Shown here: piece after piece, positions 2,563 to 52,705 of the stretch
How positions within the stretch are numbered: the first letter of the stretch is position 1
Layout of the letters: each line of letters begins with the position of its first letter
Origin: a virus
Lineage: Duplodnaviria > Heunggongvirae > Uroviricota > Caudoviricetes
IMG/VR virus record: IMGVR_UViG_2565956719_000002
Direction: 5' to 3' (one strand)
DNA length: 64,000 nt
Notes under the pieces: model-generated
Told to the model about the DNA's origin: nothing
The model's input: only the letters and a program-made list of their open reading frames with translations
Database searches by the model: none
Program-made: the position numbers and the translations under genes

Positions 2563-2639
2563 ATTGGCAGCCTCCTTAGACGTTGGTATGTAACCACCGC
2601 AGAAGAGACCAATCTTGCTGGCGGTGGACTGTACGGAGT

Positions 2640-2720
2640 TGGCCTTACTGGCGTCCAAGGTAACCAGCCTACCCGAAGGTAGCCCCATACAGCCCACCAT
2701 TGTAGAGGTGTGCGTGTACG
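2640..2720 (-). ncRNA. c4: candidate c4-like antisense/structured RNA (approximate bounds)
   Basis: UUCG-tetraloop hairpin (2669-2683) flanked by a block conserved with 52640-52690; stem sequences differ but stay complementary between the two copies. Confidence 0.3.
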
Positions 2721-2881
2721 CCGATACAAAAAAAAGACGCGAGCGGCGTCTGTATCGCCTTAGACTTAAGCGGGAGGCCAATCCCGGCACCCGTTTTAAT
2801 GAGGTGCCTGATAAGCATAAACCGAAAATGCCTCAAGGCGCAAGAGGTCAGGTTCAATGTAACATCGGCAGTCAAAAAACA

Positions 2882-7461: not shown

Positions 7462-7842
7462 CTACTCCGCAGAACCATACAATCTACGTAACGTGTCGGC
7501 GACAGAAGATACAGATATCTCGCCAGTCGCAGCGCCTACGGTAAGGTCTGCCAGTTCAGGTGAATCAAATACCTGCACCCCGTTACGGCGTAGAAATAGC
7601 AGCGCACTGTTTAGCGCGGTACGCTTATTGGCATCATTGAATATATGCCCTCTCGCTGTAGCCACCAGGTAGGTGGCAGAGACTTCGAAAAGGTCGGTGA
7701 TCTCTTCGTAGGCAACTCTGGCCTGAACTCTCCCGATAATGGCCTCTGCCCTACCCGGATCAGACATTCCCGGCAGGCCGCCGTAGCGGCTTATATTCGC
7801 ATCATGAAGCGCAATAAGTTCTTCCGGTGATATATGCCTCAT
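7462..7842 (-). CDS. doc: Doc toxin (Fic/Doc family)
   Basis: 126-aa ORF matching P1 Doc as I recall it, coupled to phd. Confidence 0.9.
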
Positions 7843-8063
7843 TATCGGTTAACCAGTTCCTTGTTGGTGGAGTCCAGGGTGTCAAACAGGGATGCAAATT
7901 CAGCATCCAGCGCCGCTTTTTTGTAGGCTTCGAAAGTAGCCTTGCTGACAATTACTGCTGGCTCACGGCCTCTGCGGGTGATTTCAACCTCTTCCCCGGC
8001 TTCAACATTGTTGAGCACTTCAGAAAGGTTGCCACGCGCGGTACGGAAGTTAATGGATTGCAT
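7842..8063 (-). CDS. phd: Phd antitoxin (73 aa)
   Basis: [18 protein letters not shown]... Phd/YefM family; stop overlaps the doc start. Confidence 0.9.
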
Positions 8064-48721: not shown

Positions 48722-48750
48722 TAAAGCTCCTTCGGGAGCTTTTTTATTTG
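48722..48750 (+). terminator. rho-independent terminator AAAGCTCC-TTCG-GGAGCTTT plus TTTTTATTT
   Basis: 8-bp stem, tetraloop, T-run after the tail operon. Confidence 0.8.
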
Positions 48751-48819
48751 GAGATGAAAGGGTGCATTGAGGATACCTGACACACTAAGAGTGGCGGAGA
48801 TCTCTCCCCGCCAGGTCTC

Positions 48820-48975
48820 TTACCTTTCAGATTCGTAGGCTGTGAAGACAGTGACCTCCGTCTGGCCGGTTCGGATTCGTACCTCGCAGAGGTCTTTCCT
48901 CGTTACCAGTGCCGTCACAATGACGGTTAAACAGATGACGATCAGAGCGATTAACATCGCTTTTTGCTGCTTCAT
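48820..48975 (-). CDS. hok: Hok/Gef-family type I toxin (51 aa)
   Basis: MKQQKAMLIALIVICLTVIVTALVTRKDLCEVRIRTGQTEVTVFTAYESER resembles Hok; AAGGAG RBS; not in the ORF track (below 60 aa). Confidence 0.8.
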   Translation of the reverse strand: MKQQKAMLIALIVICLTVIVTALVTRKDLCEVRIRTGQTEVTVFTAYESER

Positions 48976-49033
48976 AGCCTGCTTCTCCTTGACCTTTTGG
49001 TCGGTAAGAGGCTAATCTACGTATGCTAAGCAT
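48827..49033 (-). CDS. mok: Mok-like overlapping reading frame (68 aa)
   Basis: ORF starts upstream of hok and overlaps it in another frame, as in hok/mok/sok loci. Confidence 0.4.
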   Translation of the reverse strand: MLSIRRLASYRPKGQGEAGYEAAKSDVNRSDRHLFNRHCDGTGNEERPLRGTNPNRPDGGHCLHSLRI

Positions 49034-49060
49034 AGATATGGCCTCAGATTAATGTTAAGC
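48990..49060 (+). ncRNA. sok: predicted Sok-like antisense RNA (approximate)
   Basis: inferred from hok/mok architecture only; no sequence evidence inspected. Confidence 0.25.
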
Positions 49061-49156
49061 GTCTTGCAGGACGCGTAATGTTATCTGGGGCTTTCTTCTA
49101 TCTGCTTTTCGGGTAATGCCTGAAGCAGATAGCCTCAAGCACCCGCAACGATTGTA

Positions 49157-49402
49157 TCAATGTCTGGCTTTTTTTCTATAGAAATCACCTGGAAGGGTGA
49201 ATATCCACATCAGAAGAAATGTTGCAGCAAACATGATCCCTAATGGCCAGACCGCGCCAAAGAAAATCCATACTAAGATCTCCTCTGCTTGTTCTTTGCG
49301 GTCGATATCGACAAGCATTTTTCGGCTGAACATGTATACACAGAAGCCAATACAAACATATCCTGCAAAAGCGATCGCTAACTGTAAAAAATCAGATTGC
49401 AT
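49157..49402 (-). CDS. small membrane protein (81 aa from MQSDFLQ)
   Basis: two TM helices; GAGGTCGGAG RBS; longer ORF 49157-49483 overlaps repL. Confidence 0.4.
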   Translation of the reverse strand: MQSDFLQLAIAFAGYVCIGFCVYMFSRKMLVDIDRKEQAEEILVWIFFGAVWPLGIMFAATFLLMWIFTLPGDFYRKKARH

Positions 49403-49433
49403 CTCCGACCTCAAACTGAAAACGCCAGGTGAC

Positions 49434-49450
49434 TCCAGATTAGAGCAATC
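49434..49450 (-). promoter_or_regulatory. weak C1 operator-like half-site (ATTGCTCTAATCTGGAG, 12/17)
   Basis: partial motif upstream of the small membrane protein gene. Confidence 0.25.
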
Positions 49451-50327: not shown

Positions 50328-51128
50328 TTAGCGCTTAGCCGCGACAGGTACCAGCACACCAGCATCAAGCAATCGCTTCATCAGCCACTGCTGACCTTTG
50401 CCGGTTATACGAGTCGTGAAAGAAATCCTGCTTCCATTGCTTGTATCGATCACGGTTTCTTTGAGGGTGAAGTACCCACGGGATATGTATTCTTGTTTGG
50501 GGACGTTCCTGCGTTCACCGGTTGCGATCAGAATTCCGTTATCACGCAACCAGGTGAAGAGATAGTTTTGGCCCAGGCCGAGCACTTTGGCATAGTTGCC
50601 GATTAGAACCCCGCTGGCGGTAGCAACGCGTTCGGCGAATTCGACTTTAGGTGCATCCATAAGCATTTTTTGCTCCAGCCGTTGCTTTTGCTCTGCCAGG
50701 TCGGCAGCCAAACGGAGAGCTTCAGGGAGACTCTGCGGAATAGCAGGTTGTAATCTTCCGGCTCGATAGTCGATAAATGTCTGGTTTACCTTCAGCCGAA
50801 ACGCGGGAGAAATCCAGCCTGCGTACTCCACAGCGAGCAATTCATGGGCAAAAGTGCCGCCGCCACGGCCTTCGAACGAAACTATGCAATTCTGCATAGT
50901 TTCTTTTTCAAGCTCTTCGATGAGCTGTTTGGCTGACAGCGTTCTTAGCCATTGAGCTGGCGCTTTATGGGCACCGAGTCCGCTCGCTCTGTGTAGAGCA
51001 TTAAGGTTGTAACGGCCAGCGCGGTCGGTCGTAATTTCAACACCACAAATAACAGGCAGAGTGGTTGAAGGATCGACATTTTGATGAAGGTTTGATATAT
51101 TCATATCCGCATTGAATGTTTGTTGCAT
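50328..51128 (-). CDS. kilA: KilA (KilA-N plus KilAC domains, 266 aa)
   Basis: C-terminal region paralogous to the Ant KilAC domains; 266 aa as in P1 KilA. Confidence 0.8.
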   Translation of the reverse strand: MQQTFNADMNISNLHQNVDPSTTLPVICGVEITTDRAGRYNLNALHRASGLGAHKAPAQWLRTLSAKQLIEELEKETMQNCIVSFEGRGGGTFAHELLAVEYAGWISPAFRLKVNQTFIDYRAGRLQPAIPQSLPEALRLAADLAEQKQRLEQKMLMDAPKVEFAERVATASGVLIGNYAKVLGLGQNYLFTWLRDNGILIATGERRNVPKQEYISRGYFTLKETVIDTSNGSRISFTTRITGKGQQWLMKRLLDAGVLVPVAAKR

Positions 51129-51196
51129 TTTTTCTCCAAATTTGCATCAACCTTCAATCACCAGCTCGAAATGGTGATTCTTTGCACTTAGAAAAC

Positions 51197-51213
51197 GAAA
51201 TTTATTAGAGCAA
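51197..51213 (-). promoter_or_regulatory. C1 operator-like site (TTTGCTCTAATAAATTT, 16/17) upstream of kilA-repL
   Basis: motif match 70 bp upstream of kilA. Confidence 0.6.
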
Positions 51214-51292
51214 ATTTTTCTAACTCGATCCAGATCGGGTTGGTCGATCTGCTCAGAAACCTGCCAGTTTGCTGGCAGGTTTTTTTCTTTTG

Positions 51293-52336
51293 TTAACCTA
51301 TTGCTACTGGTTTTAACAAACCAGCATCAAGTAGCTTGCGAGTTAACCACTGCTGGCCTTTACCCGTTAATTGGGGCGTCAGCCGTATCTGGTAGCCATT
51401 TTCATCATCCAGTACCACTTCTTTCACCGTGAAATACCCGGCGTTGATGTACTGTTGGCGCGGTACGTTTTTGCGCGCACCAAAAGCCATGAGAATGCCG
51501 TTCTGGCGCAACCATGAGAAAAGGGCGTTTTGCTTAAGTCCAACGACCTTTGCAAAGTTCCCGATCAGGATTCCATTGGCCACTGATACCCGGTCGGCAA
51601 AATCGACTTTAGGGGCTGCGGCCACCAGCTGTTGTTCCAACTGCATTTTCTGTTCTGCTAACTCGGCAGCCAGGCGTAGGGCTTCTGGTAATGTCTGGGG
51701 GATCGATGGGGTAGGTGAGTTTGCCTGCTGCAATTCTTCCAGTTTGTCGATCAGCGAACGGCGGACGGCTTTTGATTCGCGTGCGGCGACTCGCAGGGCT
51801 TGTTTGTAGGTCATGGTTATGACAACCATAGGCGTACCGCCACCTGGCGGCACGGTTGCACTTTTTGTGTAACCGTCCTCACCTTCTAATTCGTCGAGTA
51901 TTTTTTCGATGAATTTGTTGTTCCGAACCTCTGGTTCCCCACATAACTTACGCGCTTCATTGACCATCTTTAACAGTGTCAGGCTGTCGATTGTGTCTCC
52001 GGTGTTGGGGATGATATTCACGGCTGGTGCTGGCGTAGCTGACGTAACAGGTGCTGTTTTTTCAACATTCAAATTATTACCGGTCATTCTATGTGCCTCC
52101 TTTCTCATTTCTGCTGCCACTGTTGCGTAACGTAGACGTCCTTGTTCAATCAAATAATCCCTGATCTCGGCTATCAGTAGCTTGTTGATCACAGCCTTAT
52201 CTGTTCGGGTATAAAAACGTCTGGTTATCATGAAATAGTTGGCAATTGCGCCGGGGATCTCCCGTGTCGGCATACAGGCAGTATGCAGGGCGATCGCTTC
52301 GGCTATGTCATTACGGGTGACGAGAGGTTTTTTCAT
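51293..52336 (-). CDS. ant: antirepressor Ant, second copy (347 aa)
   Basis: N- and C-terminal thirds about 80-90% identical to 1229-2344; different central domain. Confidence 0.8.
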   Translation of the reverse strand: MKKPLVTRNDIAEAIALHTACMPTREIPGAIANYFMITRRFYTRTDKAVINKLLIAEIRDYLIEQGRLRYATVAAEMRKEAHRMTGNNLNVEKTAPVTSATPAPAVNIIPNTGDTIDSLTLLKMVNEARKLCGEPEVRNNKFIEKILDELEGEDGYTKSATVPPGGGTPMVVITMTYKQALRVAARESKAVRRSLIDKLEELQQANSPTPSIPQTLPEALRLAAELAEQKMQLEQQLVAAAPKVDFADRVSVANGILIGNFAKVVGLKQNALFSWLRQNGILMAFGARKNVPRQQYINAGYFTVKEVVLDDENGYQIRLTPQLTGKGQQWLTRKLLDAGLLKPVAIG

Positions 52337-52554: not shown

Positions 52555-52624
52555 AGTTACGGCCTCACAATCAGGTTTAACAACCTGCTACCCGCTGTCA
52601 AACAGGTGGCAGGACGTGACAGGG

Positions 52625-52705
52625 TTGACAGACTGGCGATTGTGAAACCAGCAGGCCGAAGCCTCCCCATCACGCCCCACCATAATTTGGGCGTAACGCG
52701 GTTTA
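52625..52705 (-). ncRNA. c4: candidate c4-like structured RNA, second copy (approximate)
   Basis: UUCG hairpin (52653-52664) with conserved flanks matching the copy at 2640-2720. Confidence 0.3.

What the first reader, a model, noticed from the sequence alone, without database searches (positions are those of the whole stretch)
48760..49100. Unlisted hok/mok/sok-like type I toxin locus; second addiction system beside phd-doc
A 51-aa Hok-like ORF (48820-48975, minus) with an AAGGAG RBS is overlapped in another frame by a 68-aa Mok-like ORF starting upstream, the signature arrangement of hok/mok/sok. It sits between the tail-operon terminator and repL. Hok falls below the 60-aa cut-off of the ORF track.
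Basis: partly seen in the sequence, partly recalled or inferred. Interest (0 to 1): 0.5.

Follow-up and report, generated by a model that had tools for sequence, protein, structure and literature searches.

The report
Known hok/mok/sok toxin–antitoxin cassette

Summary
The 51-aa ORF at 48820-48975(-) is a Hok/Gef toxin (Pfam PF01848, E=2.4e-22). Its leader matches Rfam RF01794 at 114.9 bits against a cut-off of 59. The 68-aa mok ORF, both promoters, the Sok antisense RNA (about 49025-49095, +) and the hok mRNA control elements (tac, ucb, dcb, fbi) are all present. The 385-nt transcript closes by 5'-3' end pairing (z=-8.3), and 64 related loci support that structure with compensatory changes.

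It is part of a 693-bp module (48746-49438) that also holds an 81-aa ORF of unknown function. This module replaces pmgF-rlfB-rlfA of reference P1.

It is not novel. Identical DNA is annotated "hokD" or "MokW", and about 61% (416 of 679) of P1-like plasmids in PLSDB carry it. Hok is 47/51 identical to HokW of prophage Sp5, a tested type I toxin-antitoxin (TA) system.

The molecular mechanism is well supported. The "addiction" role is inferred only: the nearest tested relative instead aids lysis and phage release on induction, and chromosomal-type hok loci failed killing assays. phd-doc is indeed present (7462-8063).

The parts
49151..49178 (-). hok promoter: -35 TAGAAA (49178-49173), 16-nt spacer, extended -10 TGaTACAAT (49159-49151). 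The predicted +1 is at 49144.
   Evidence: Promoter scan gives 9/12 matches with TG; coordinates. The -10 aligns with TAGAAT/TATAAT of relatives. The transcript start is inferred, not measured.
48760..49144 (-). Full-length hok mRNA (385 nt), translationally inert closed form.
   Evidence: The fold has MFE -152.4 kcal/mol, z=-8.3, 0/100 shuffles as good, and the 5' and 3' ends pair. It is 85.6% identical to 933W hokW mRNA. The ends are inferred from homology and the tac/fbi positions.
49133..49144 (-). tac (translational activator element), GGGTGCTTGAGG, at the 5' end of hok mRNA.
   Evidence: Pairs with fbi in the full-length fold. Nearly invariant in 64 loci. Forms the first stem of the Rfam model.
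49087..49093 (-). ucb / anti-SD box (AAGCCCC). It sequesters the mok SD in the closed form and pairs with tac in the open form.
   Evidence: CCCC (mRNA nt 55-58) pairs with GAGG (nt 100-103) in the full-length fold. The tac/ucb stem is in the Rfam CM alignment. Enforcing it costs +12.0 kcal/mol in the full-length mRNA but only +1.4 to +2.8 after 3' truncation.
48827..49033 (-). mok ORF (68 aa) with SD GAGG at 49045-49042. It overlaps hok in the +1 frame and stops 7 nt before the hok stop.
   Evidence: ATG is conserved in 58/64 relatives, most with GAGG; in 49/64 it is in frame with hok, and +1 in the P1 type. Matches phrog_37205, E=8.3e-21.
49015..49037 (-). Sok-target hairpin around the mok start codon; its loop CUUAGCAUA contains YUNR-type motifs.
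   Evidence: Stem nt 108-114 / 124-130 in the full-length fold. It is complementary to the unpaired 5' tail of the Sok candidate. The U-turn reading comes from my knowledge of the R1 system and was not tested.
49008..49013 (-). dcb (downstream complementary box), AGCCUC, the alternative partner of the mok SD.
   Evidence: GAGGC (nt 100-104) pairs with nt 131-135 in the truncated mRNA when tac/ucb is enforced. It lies in the nearly invariant TTAGCCTCTTAC block. The dcb is adjacent to the Sok -10 region, as stated for R1 in PMC9841398.
48820..48975 (-). hok CDS (51 aa, membrane toxin) with SD AAGGAG at 48990-48985.
   Evidence: Pfam PF01848 E=2.4e-22; phrog_251 'MokW-like host killing' E=4.9e-32. 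It is 47/51 identical to HokW. Annotated as WP_001313475.1 HokD.
48832..48838 (-). CUACGAA motif over the Tyr47 codon (UAC, 48837-48835), a candidate TadA A-to-I editing site (A at 48836) that would recode Tyr47 to Cys.
   Evidence: The motif was located. Editing of the equivalent Tyr in hokC/D/E is stated in bioRxiv 10.1101/2025.08.07.668861. No local hairpin is predicted. Whether this site is edited is an inference.
48793..48812 (-). GC-rich 3' stem-loop (GGCGGGGAG-AGAU-CUCCGCC), the presumed 3' end protector of the processed, translatable hok mRNA.
   Evidence: Present in the folds (helices 17-18, 81-82% of cells paired). Its role follows PMC9841398. An IS421 insertion hits this hairpin in L012 and L098.
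48760..48772 (-). fbi (fold-back inhibitory element), CCTCAATGCACCC, at the 3' end of the full-length hok mRNA.
   Evidence: Pairs with tac over 12 bp with one bulged U. In the tac-fbi helix, 92.7% of cells are paired and 5/12 pairs show compensatory changes, e.g. U-A to C-G in 9 loci.
48989..49018 (+). Sok promoter: -35 TTGACC (48989-48994, overlapping the hok SD on the other strand), 18-nt spacer, -10 TAATCT (49013-49018).
   Evidence: Coordinates. The -10 aligns with sokW TAACCT, the element mutated in the 'pro-less' construct that abolished antitoxin activity (primers YO-421/422). The generic promoter scan did not flag it.
49025..49095 (+). Sok antisense RNA (about 71 nt): an unpaired 5' tail plus a long terminator-like hairpin, followed by CUUUCUUCU.
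   Evidence: Mapped from the annotated sokW of 933W through the alignment. The fold is -31.8 kcal/mol, z=-5.3. It is 87.3% identical to sokW, with the differences concentrated in the 5' tail. The transcript itself was not observed.
48746..49438 (.). The swapped 693-bp accessory module (hok/sok cassette plus orf81) that replaces pmgF-rlfB-rlfA of reference P1.
   Evidence: Identity to P1 ends at 48745, after the shared terminator hairpin at 48723-48742, and resumes at 49439 inside the C1 operator Orlf.
49157..49402 (-). orf81, a small hydrophobic protein of unknown function. It is co-inherited with hok, and its stop codon overlaps the hok -10 region. It is not demonstrably part of the toxin-antitoxin system.
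   Evidence: WP_029401368.1. phrog_3772, E=9.7e-54, unknown function. No Pfam or NCBIfam hit. Lambdoid hok cassettes lack it: their homology ends at about 49156.

Best explanation
This is an intact hok/mok/sok type I toxin-antitoxin cassette on a P1-like plasmid prophage.

Proposed mechanism:
1. A weak promoter (49151-49178) makes a stable 385-nt hok mRNA (49144 to 48760). Its 5' end (tac) pairs with its 3' end (fbi), and its mok SD is held by the upstream CCCC box, so the mRNA is neither translated nor bound by antisense RNA.
2. Slow 3' trimming back to the GC-rich hairpin (48793-48812) removes fbi.
3. The leader then refolds into the tac/ucb stem. This exposes the mok SD and start codon and the target hairpin.
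4. While the element is present and transcribed, the short-lived Sok RNA (about 49025-49095, + strand, from its own promoter at 48989-49018) pairs with that region through its free 5' tail. It blocks mok translation, and the duplex is destroyed.
5. If Sok synthesis stops, Sok decays first. This could happen through loss of the plasmid, a transcription block by an infecting phage, or prophage induction.
6. Ribosomes then translate mok and, by coupling, hok. The 51-aa Hok inserts into the inner membrane and kills the cell.

Shown here: all sequence elements, the predicted folds and the covariation.

Inferred from homologs (R1 hok/sok; hokW-sokW, 47/51 identical Hok): the transcripts, the processing, toxicity and neutralisation.

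Biological pay-off. My best guess is stabilisation of the plasmid prophage by post-segregational killing, next to phd-doc (about 45%). P1 plasmids are roughly single-copy (from my own knowledge, not tested here). Help with lysis and release on induction is the main alternative (about 25%), followed by abortive-infection defence (about 15%) and no current function (about 15%).
For: - Toxin: Pfam PF01848 E=2.4e-22; phrog_251.
- Leader: Rfam RF01794 at 114.9 bits against a cut-off of 59, on the hok-sense strand and including the tac/ucb stem.
- Elements: ORFs and SDs.
- Full-length fold: closed by tac-fbi, z=-8.3.
- Open conformer: costs +12 kcal/mol in the full-length mRNA but only +1.4 to +2.8 after 3' truncation.
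- Covariation: on 64 loci, 89.6% of cells are paired against 37-45% for slid controls. The covariation score is 0.137 against 0.058 or less, and 0/500 shuffles reach it. The tac-fbi helix has 5/12 compensatory pairs.
- Sok: a hairpin with a free 5' tail, z=-5.3. Its position matches the annotated sokW. Its -10 aligns with the experimentally disrupted sokW -10.
- Tested relative: Hok is 47/51 identical to the toxic, membrane-located HokW.
- Conservation: the cassette is 100% conserved in the 21 top-listed plasmids and 99% or more in 375 records, and it is present in 416 of 679 P1-like plasmids.
- Mechanism: the elements are as defined in PMC9841398.
Against: - No transcript, processing or toxicity data exist for this locus.
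- The MFE of the truncated mRNA keeps tac in the local (metastable-type) hairpin rather than tac/ucb.
- The generic promoter scan does not call the Sok promoter; its -10 matches the consensus at only 3/6 positions.
- The cassette's own intrinsic terminator, present after fbi in lambdoid relatives (CCCGCTTCGGCGGGTTTTT), is missing. Only the reversed bplB terminator hairpin, without a U-tract, follows.
- Hok has Tyr, not Cys, at position 47 and may need TadA editing for full toxicity.
[quoted passage not shown] The closest tested relative works at induction.
Confidence: 0.85

Rival explanations
1. The molecular machine is the same, but its role is different. The cassette is triggered by prophage induction and helps host killing, lysis and phage release, as shown for hokW-sokW in Sp5, rather than serving plasmid addiction. 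One possible trigger here: de-repressed transcription of the C1-controlled kilA-repL operon reads through orf81 into the cassette. That read-through runs co-directionally with hok and head-on against the Sok promoter, which would lower Sok.
For: - hokW-sokW has a Hok 47/51 identical and a cassette about 86-88% identical in nucleotides. In that system sokW RNA disappears on induction, HokW is made about 1 h before endolysin, and deleting the locus halves phage release.
- In the window the cassette lies directly downstream of kilA-repL-orf81 and is co-oriented with them. Only one weak terminator-like site intervenes, at 49200-49185.
Against: - The read-through and interference trigger is pure inference.
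- In Sp5 the trigger is unknown.
- P1 has its own holin/endolysin timing system.
- The module is absent from reference P1 and P7, which lyse normally.
- The effect in Sp5 was only two-fold.
Confidence: 0.25
2. The cassette serves as an abortive-infection or exclusion defence. Host transcription shut-off by an infecting lytic phage stops Sok synthesis, and Hok kills the cell before that phage matures, which protects the lysogen population.
For: - R1 hok/sok on a high-copy plasmid reduced T4 plating by 42% and plaque size by about 85% (cited).
- The cassette sits in a variable accessory slot of the P1 backbone, where reference P1 has pmgF-rlfB-rlfA and RCS47 has a transposase annotated under the match.
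- Phage defence is a recognised role of toxin-antitoxin systems.
Against: - The Hok survey found no enrichment of hok near defence systems.
- The R1 effect was modest and depended on copy number.
- Nothing was tested for this clade.
Confidence: 0.15
3. The cassette is a hitch-hiking, functionally silent copy. It looks intact but is not activatable, like the chromosomal hok loci, and was simply carried in by recombination with a lambdoid or Rac-type prophage.
For: - It belongs to the chromosomal/prophage hokD/hokW/hokC clade, whose members failed post-segregational killing and rifampicin tests.
- Its own terminator was lost at the recombination junction.
- Tyr47 needs editing.
- Some copies are hit by IS421 at the 3' hairpin.
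Against: - All regulatory elements are intact, and the sequence is identical or nearly so in hundreds of plasmids.
- HokD-type peptides and 42 of 45 tested homologs are toxic.
- hokW-sokW, from the same clade, is active.
- Compensatory changes maintain the long-range structure.
Confidence: 0.15
4. The two small overlapping ORFs are chance ORFs in an intergenic spacer.
For: Both are short. The +1 mok frame staying open for 68 codons is only mildly improbable on its own (about 4% by a simple stop-codon estimate).
Against: - Pfam E=2.4e-22 and Rfam E=1.9e-26.
- Hundreds of homologous loci conserve the starts, the SDs and the RNA structure.
Confidence: 0.01

Closest known systems
hokW-sokW (with mokW) of Stx2 prophages Sp5/VT2-Sakai and 933W
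   Same: - Hok is 47/51 identical, the hok CDS 92.9%, the whole mRNA 85.6% and the Sok region 87.3%.
- tac is identical, fbi differs at 1 nt, and the Sok promoter layout is the same.
- This system is experimentally a type I toxin-antitoxin: it is partly dependent on RNase III and Hfq, and HokW locates to the inner membrane.
   Different: - In hokW, mok is an in-frame N-terminal extension of hok. Here one extra T puts mok in the +1 frame.
- The 5' recognition tail of Sok differs at 6 of its first 19 nt, so cross-neutralisation is doubtful.
- The upstream promoter context and the downstream terminator differ.
- The host element is a lambdoid integrated prophage, not a plasmid prophage.
hok/sok (parB) of plasmid R1, the family prototype
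   Same: - The architecture is the same: an out-of-frame overlapping mok, a Sok promoter whose -35 overlaps the hok SD, the tac/fbi/ucb/dcb logic, and 3' processing to a translatable form (PMC9841398).
- It also sits on a low-copy plasmid, where it mediates post-segregational killing.
   Different: - The proteins are only distantly similar. HokW, which is 47/51 identical to this Hok, shares 44% identity with R1 Hok.
- The NCBIfam Hok subfamily model scores below its cut-off, 49.5 against 73 bits.
- This Hok has Tyr at the position where some family members encode Cys.
- Post-segregational killing is demonstrated for R1 but not for this clade.
hokD (relF) / hok-mok of Rac-type prophages
   Same: - This is the best non-P1 nucleotide match: 91.3% over 397 nt to Rac of E. 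coli 442/2, with mok annotated in the same +1 frame and at the same length.
- PGAP names the window's protein HokD.
   Different: - From my knowledge of Pedersen & Gerdes 1999, the K-12 hokD locus lacks the upstream mok/sok part. 5'-truncated relatives of this kind are seen here (L094, L109).
- The window's copy is complete.
phd-doc of P1 (type II addiction module on the same element)
   Same: It is a toxin-antitoxin module on the same plasmid prophage (7462-8063), and it is the established P1 addiction system. It is a functional analogue if hok/sok mediates post-segregational killing.
   Different: It has a protein antitoxin and a Fic-family kinase toxin, with no RNA control. It is unrelated in sequence and mechanism.

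Membership tests
[quoted passage not shown] | A toxin of about 50 aa with an N-terminal hydrophobic helix that matches the Hok/Gef family profile. | tested here: met
   Pfam PF01848 at 78.7 bits against a cut-off of 22, E=2.4e-22, full model 1-42. phrog_251 E=4.9e-32.
[quoted passage not shown] | A mok reading frame with its own SD that starts upstream of hok and overlaps it (translational coupling). | tested here: met
   The ORF is at 48827-49033 with GAGG 8 nt upstream. The start is conserved as ATG in 58/64 relatives. The frame varies: in frame in 49/64, +1 here. Coupling itself was not tested.
[quoted passage not shown] | A cis-encoded antisense Sok RNA with its own promoter, complementary to the mok translation-initiation region. 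| tested here: met
   Met at sequence level. The position maps from the annotated sokW. The fold has a free 5' tail and a long hairpin, z=-5.3. The -35 is TTGACC and the -10 TAATCT; the -10 aligns to the experimentally mutated sokW -10. The transcript was not observed, which these tools cannot test.
[quoted passage not shown] | tac-fbi pairing of the mRNA 5' and 3' ends that locks the full-length mRNA. | tested here: met
   A 12-bp end pairing is present in the MFE and centroid structures. In 64 loci, 92.7% of cells are paired and 5/12 pairs show compensatory change.
[quoted passage not shown] | The mok SD is sequestered by ucb in the closed form. After 3' processing, the leader switches to tac/ucb plus SD/dcb. 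| tested here: inconclusive
   The closed form is met: GAGG pairs with CCCC. The tac/ucb stem is present in the Rfam CM alignment, and truncation makes it nearly isoenergetic, a ddG of +12.0 falling to +1.4-2.8 kcal/mol. However, it is not the predicted MFE. Processing cannot be tested in silico.
[quoted passage not shown] | The leader RNA matches the curated covariance model above its gathering score. | tested here: met
   RF01794 at 114.9 bits against 59, full length 1-157. The match is on the hok-sense strand.
[quoted passage not shown] | Hok kills or arrests cells when expressed, and Sok neutralises it. | not testable with these tools
   Only by proxy. HokW, 47/51 identical, is toxic and is neutralised by sokW. 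HokD and 42 of 45 tested homologs are toxic.
Plasmid addiction (post-segregational killing) modules | The module increases plasmid retention by killing plasmid-free segregants, with an unstable antitoxin and a stable toxin message. | not testable with these tools
   No data exist for this locus. Chromosomal-type hok loci failed post-segregational killing tests, and hokW-sokW acts at induction.
NCBIfam Hok subfamily NF007279 / HokA equivalog NF007290 | A score at or above the curated whole-protein cut-off. | tested here: not met
   49.5 bits against a cut-off of 73, and 38.1 against 89. The 'HokD' name in RefSeq must come from another naming rule. This does not affect membership of the broader Pfam family.

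The most novel reading that the evidence does not exclude
In P1-type phage-plasmids the hok/sok cassette may be wired to the lytic switch. It sits immediately downstream of the C1-repressed kilA-repL operon and is co-oriented with it. The recombination junction lies inside the old Orlf operator, and the cassette's own terminator is gone. On induction, read-through transcription would oppose the Sok promoter and add hok message. One cassette could then act as a plasmid-addiction module during lysogeny and as an induction-triggered lysis accelerator in the lytic cycle. That would also suggest a mechanism for the unexplained loss of sokW seen in Sp5.
Probability: 0.12. Interest if true: 0.45.

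Novelty: already known. Interest (0 to 1): 0.12.

Why it matters
It matters little as a discovery. The family has been understood since the plasmid R1 work, and this exact sequence is already named in RefSeq.

Three points are useful for annotation:
1. Most sequenced P1-like plasmids (about 61%) carry a second, RNA-controlled toxin-antitoxin module that reference P1 and P7 lack. P1-derived statements that phd-doc is 'the' addiction system do not transfer to field isolates.
2. Public records annotate only the Hok peptide, sometimes mislabelled MokW. They omit mok, Sok and the mRNA elements, which are mapped here to the base.
3. The papers on P1-like phage-plasmids that my searches returned do not mention this hok locus.

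If the module contributes to the persistence of resistance-carrying P1-like plasmids, or to their induction biology, that would be of practical interest, but it needs experiments.

Tried and rejected
- The generic sigma-70 scan found the hok promoter but not the Sok promoter. I assigned the Sok promoter through alignment to sokW and the published promoter mutation.
- MFE folding of 3'-truncated mRNAs did not reproduce the tac/ucb 'open' stem. It gave the local tac hairpin that the literature calls metastable. Constrained folding showed the open form is within 1.4-2.8 kcal/mol, so I scored that feature as inconclusive rather than met.
- The NCBIfam Hok models score below their cut-offs, so I did not use them for membership.
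- A local tRNA-like hairpin around the candidate TadA site was not predicted. I kept it only as a motif-level note.
- Three literature searches for hok in P1-like, IncY or phage-plasmid papers (passages read) found hok only on other plasmids of the same strains. None discussed this locus.
- orf81 has no Pfam or NCBIfam match and only a PHROG of unknown function. I rejected treating it as part of the toxin-antitoxin system, because lambdoid hok cassettes lack it.
- I considered and rejected a second hok copy in the window and the chance-ORF explanation.
- I did not use the large protein-database, structure-prediction or fold-search tools. The family assignment was already unambiguous.
Full report
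**What is in the sequence.**
The first is a 51-aa ORF at 48820-48975, MKQQKAMLIALIVICLTVIVTALVTRKDLCEVRIRTGQTEVTVFTAYESER. The second is a 68-aa ORF at 48827-49033 in a different frame. AAGGAG lies 9 nt upstream of the first ATG, and GAGG lies 8 nt upstream of the second.

The 51-aa protein matches Pfam HOK_GEF over the whole model (E=2.4e-22, 78.7 bits against a cut-off of 22) and PHROG 251, 'MokW-like host killing'. The DNA from 49144 to 48970 matches Rfam RF01794 ('sok') full length at 114.9 bits against a gathering score of 59. That match is on the hok-sense strand. The model starts with the tac stem and ends at the hok start codon, so it describes the hok mRNA leader, which contains the complement of Sok. 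The window holds only one such locus.

**Anatomy.**
I aligned the locus with the annotated hokW/mokW/sokW of phage 933W and with an intact Rac hok/mok. Combined with folding, this places every named element of the family.

- **hok promoter:** TAGAAA, 16 nt, TGaTACAAT (49178-49151). It predicts a start at 49144.
- **tac:** GGGTGCTTGAGG at 49144-49133.
- **ucb / anti-SD:** AAGCCCC at 49093-49087.
- **mok SD and ATG:** 49045-49042 and 49033.
- **Target hairpin:** 49037-49015.
- **dcb:** AGCCUC at 49013-49008.
- **hok SD and ATG:** 48990-48985 and 48975.
- **GC-rich 3' hairpin:** 48812-48793.
- **fbi:** CCTCAATGCACCC at 48772-48760.

On the plus strand the Sok promoter reads TTGACC (48989-48994, overlapping the hok SD), 18 nt, TAATCT (49013-49018). 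It would start Sok near 49025, and the annotated 71-nt sokW maps to 49025-49095.

**RNA structure.**
The 385-nt transcript folds at -152.4 kcal/mol (z=-8.3), with nt 1-12 paired to nt 373-385 (tac-fbi) and the mok SD paired to the CCCC box. The Sok candidate has an unpaired 5' tail and a long hairpin followed by CUUUCUUCU (z=-5.3).

Forcing the tac/ucb stem that Rfam's model uses costs +12.0 kcal/mol in the full-length RNA. Once the last 35-40 nt are removed, it costs only +1.4 to +2.8, and in the -35 form the first three bases of the mok SD (GAG) are then unpaired. This agrees with the published 3'-processing switch (PMC9841398). The unconstrained MFE of the truncated RNA still keeps tac in the local hairpin, so I rate that feature inconclusive.

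**Evolutionary support.**
I fetched 127 related loci from the viral and genome collections and reduced them to 63 representatives at 70-99% nucleotide identity. I aligned these with the window and counted pairs for the window's full-length structure.

| Measure | Observed | Control |
|---|---|---|
| Cells forming a standard pair | 89.6% | 37-45% (3' partners slid 1-3 columns) |
| Covariation score | 0.137 | 0.058 or less (slid) |
| Shuffles reaching the observed score | 0 of 500 | n/a |

In the tac-fbi helix, 92.7% of cells are paired and 5 of 12 pairs change on both sides. One example is U-A to C-G in nine loci, the Photorhabdus type GGGCGC...GCGCCC. Another is GAAG/CTTC in Citrobacter. The structure was derived from one member of the alignment, which inflates the paired percentage, but the compensatory changes do not depend on that.

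**mok.**
The aligned start codon is ATG in 58 of 64 loci, and most of these keep the GAGG SD. In 49 of 64 loci mok is in frame with hok, giving a leader-Hok fusion like the annotated mokW. The P1-type cassette has one extra T (AAAGGTCAAGGAG), which puts mok in the +1 frame and yields the 68-aa overlapping ORF. To my recollection, plasmid R1 has the same out-of-frame overlap. The 'signature' overlap in another frame is thus real here, but it is not universal in this clade. What is conserved is translation initiating upstream and running across the hok start.

**Context and origin.**
The window is a P1-like phage-plasmid.

- phd (7845-8063) is 100% identical to the P1 Phd sequence as I recalled it.
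- doc (7462-7842) has the Fic motif.
- C4 RNA, three tRNAs and the kilA-repL region are present.

Reference P1 and P7 have pmgF, rlfB and rlfA between bplB and repL. Identity to P1 stops at 48745, just after the shared terminator hairpin, and resumes at 49439. That second junction lies inside the C1 operator Orlf/Op55, of which the window keeps 11 of 17 nt. A 693-bp module therefore replaces about 1.8 kb of P1. It consists of the hok/sok cassette plus an 81-aa hydrophobic ORF (phrog_3772, unknown function).

The cassette itself (48760-49156) is 88-91% identical to hok loci of Rac-type and Stx prophages, which lack the 81-aa ORF. Those relatives have an intrinsic terminator right after fbi. Here only 14 nt follow before the reversed bplB terminator, which has no U-tract on this strand.

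**Already known.**
The identical 501-bp stretch is present in many plasmids, where PGAP annotates 'hokD: type I toxin-antitoxin system toxin HokD' (WP_001313475.1). In phage records it is 'MokW' or hypothetical. In PLSDB, 679 plasmids carry this bplB and 416 carry at least 80% of the hok stretch. The module is therefore the majority state (about 61%) among P1-like plasmids.

A recent survey counts 44,248 Hok homologs and reports enrichment in prophages and large plasmids (bioRxiv 10.1101/2025.08.07.668861). None of the P1-like phage-plasmid papers I searched discusses the locus. Mok, Sok and the RNA elements are not annotated in the P1-like records I inspected.

**Function.**
The closest tested relative is hokW-sokW of Sp5. 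Its Hok is 47/51 identical, its Sok region 87.3% identical, its tac identical and its fbi different at 1 nt. In that system:

- HokW arrests growth.
- sokW expressed from its own promoter neutralises it.
- Mutating the -10 (TAACCT, which aligns with the window's TAATCT) abolishes protection.
- Neutralisation partly depends on RNase III and Hfq.

On prophage induction sokW disappears, HokW accumulates in the inner membrane about an hour before endolysin, and deleting the locus halves phage release (PMC8621323). By contrast, chromosomal-type hok loci did not mediate post-segregational killing (cited), while R1 hok/sok does and also weakly excludes T4 (cited).

I therefore rate the molecular mechanism as well supported (0.85). 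Among the possible pay-offs I give post-segregational killing only a plurality. The window's Sok differs from sokW mainly in its 5' recognition tail, which suggests it is specific for its own mRNA.

**Verdict.**
The thing itself is an ordinary, already annotated member of a classic family. Interest is low.

Noticed in passing
window 49439-49449 (-): The repL-side recombination junction of the hok module falls inside P1's C1 operator Orlf/Op55. The window keeps ATTGCTCTAAT (11 of 17 nt) and then diverges. P1's PrlfA promoter lies in the replaced segment, so it was lost. Whether the half-site still binds C1 is unknown.
   Followed up: partly
window 49157-49402 (-) (ORF open to 49483): A hydrophobic ORF of 81 aa (108 aa from the first possible start), WP_029401368.1, phrog_3772, unknown function, with no Pfam or NCBIfam hit. 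It is co-inherited with hok in P1-like plasmids but absent from lambdoid hok cassettes. Its TGA stop overlaps the extended -10 of the hok promoter.
   Followed up: partly
window 48832-48838 (-); edited base would be 48836: CUACGAA, which I recall as the tRNA-Arg2 anticodon-loop sequence and which contains UACG, the TadA target motif as I recall it. It lies over Hok codon Tyr47. A recent survey states that hokC/D/E mRNAs are A-to-I edited at the equivalent Tyr to give the Cys needed for a disulfide. No local hairpin is predicted here.
   Followed up: partly
L012:502-956 (91-kb P1-like IMG/VR contig) and L098 (E. coli chromosome, hokC-type): An IS421/IS186-type element (end sequence CATAAGCGCTAACTTAAGGGTTGA) is inserted in the GC-rich 3' hairpin of the hok mRNA, after nt 346. 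It removes fbi. The same target is hit in two unrelated hok loci, which recalls the IS-disrupted hok loci of E. coli K-12.
   Followed up: partly
alignment A4 (64 hok loci), columns 202-261: In 49 of 64 relatives mok is an in-frame N-terminal extension of hok. A single extra T in the P1-type cassette (also in L093, L106 and L108) shifts it to the overlapping +1 frame.
   Followed up: yes
window 48746-48759 and 48723-48742: The hok cassette's own intrinsic terminator (CCCGCTTCGGCGGGTTTTT in lambdoid relatives) is missing. Only the reversed bplB terminator hairpin follows fbi, with no U-tract on the hok strand. How the full-length 3' end is formed here is therefore unclear.
   Followed up: partly
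window 2617-2807 (-): A second C4-type antisense RNA (75.9 bits) plus an isrK-like RNA (60.8 bits) lie just downstream of pacB, where P1 has immC. The region is shared with RCS47, JL22 and vB_EcoM-673R5, whose records annotate Icd, antirepressor and Roi-like genes there. The expected immI C4 copy is at 52602-52687.
   Followed up: partly
window 48970-49144 (-): Rfam RF01794 is named 'sok antitoxin' but matches the hok-sense strand. Its consensus runs from the tac stem to the hok AUG. A hit's strand therefore gives the orientation of hok, not of Sok, which is a trap for automated annotation.
   Followed up: yes
L095 (275 bp, 'Acinetobacter idrijaensis') and L107 (431 bp, 'Xanthomonas pisi'): Tiny contigs in non-enterobacterial assemblies encode Hok fragments 100% identical to the window's. 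This is most likely E. coli or P1-like contamination rather than true hosts.
   Followed up: no
window 50328-52200 approx. (-); L001 4629-6501: Two consecutive KilAC-domain antirepressor genes (kilA, and an ant-like gene annotated 'KilA protein') lie upstream of repL, as in other P1-like records. I noted this only from the annotation.
   Followed up: no
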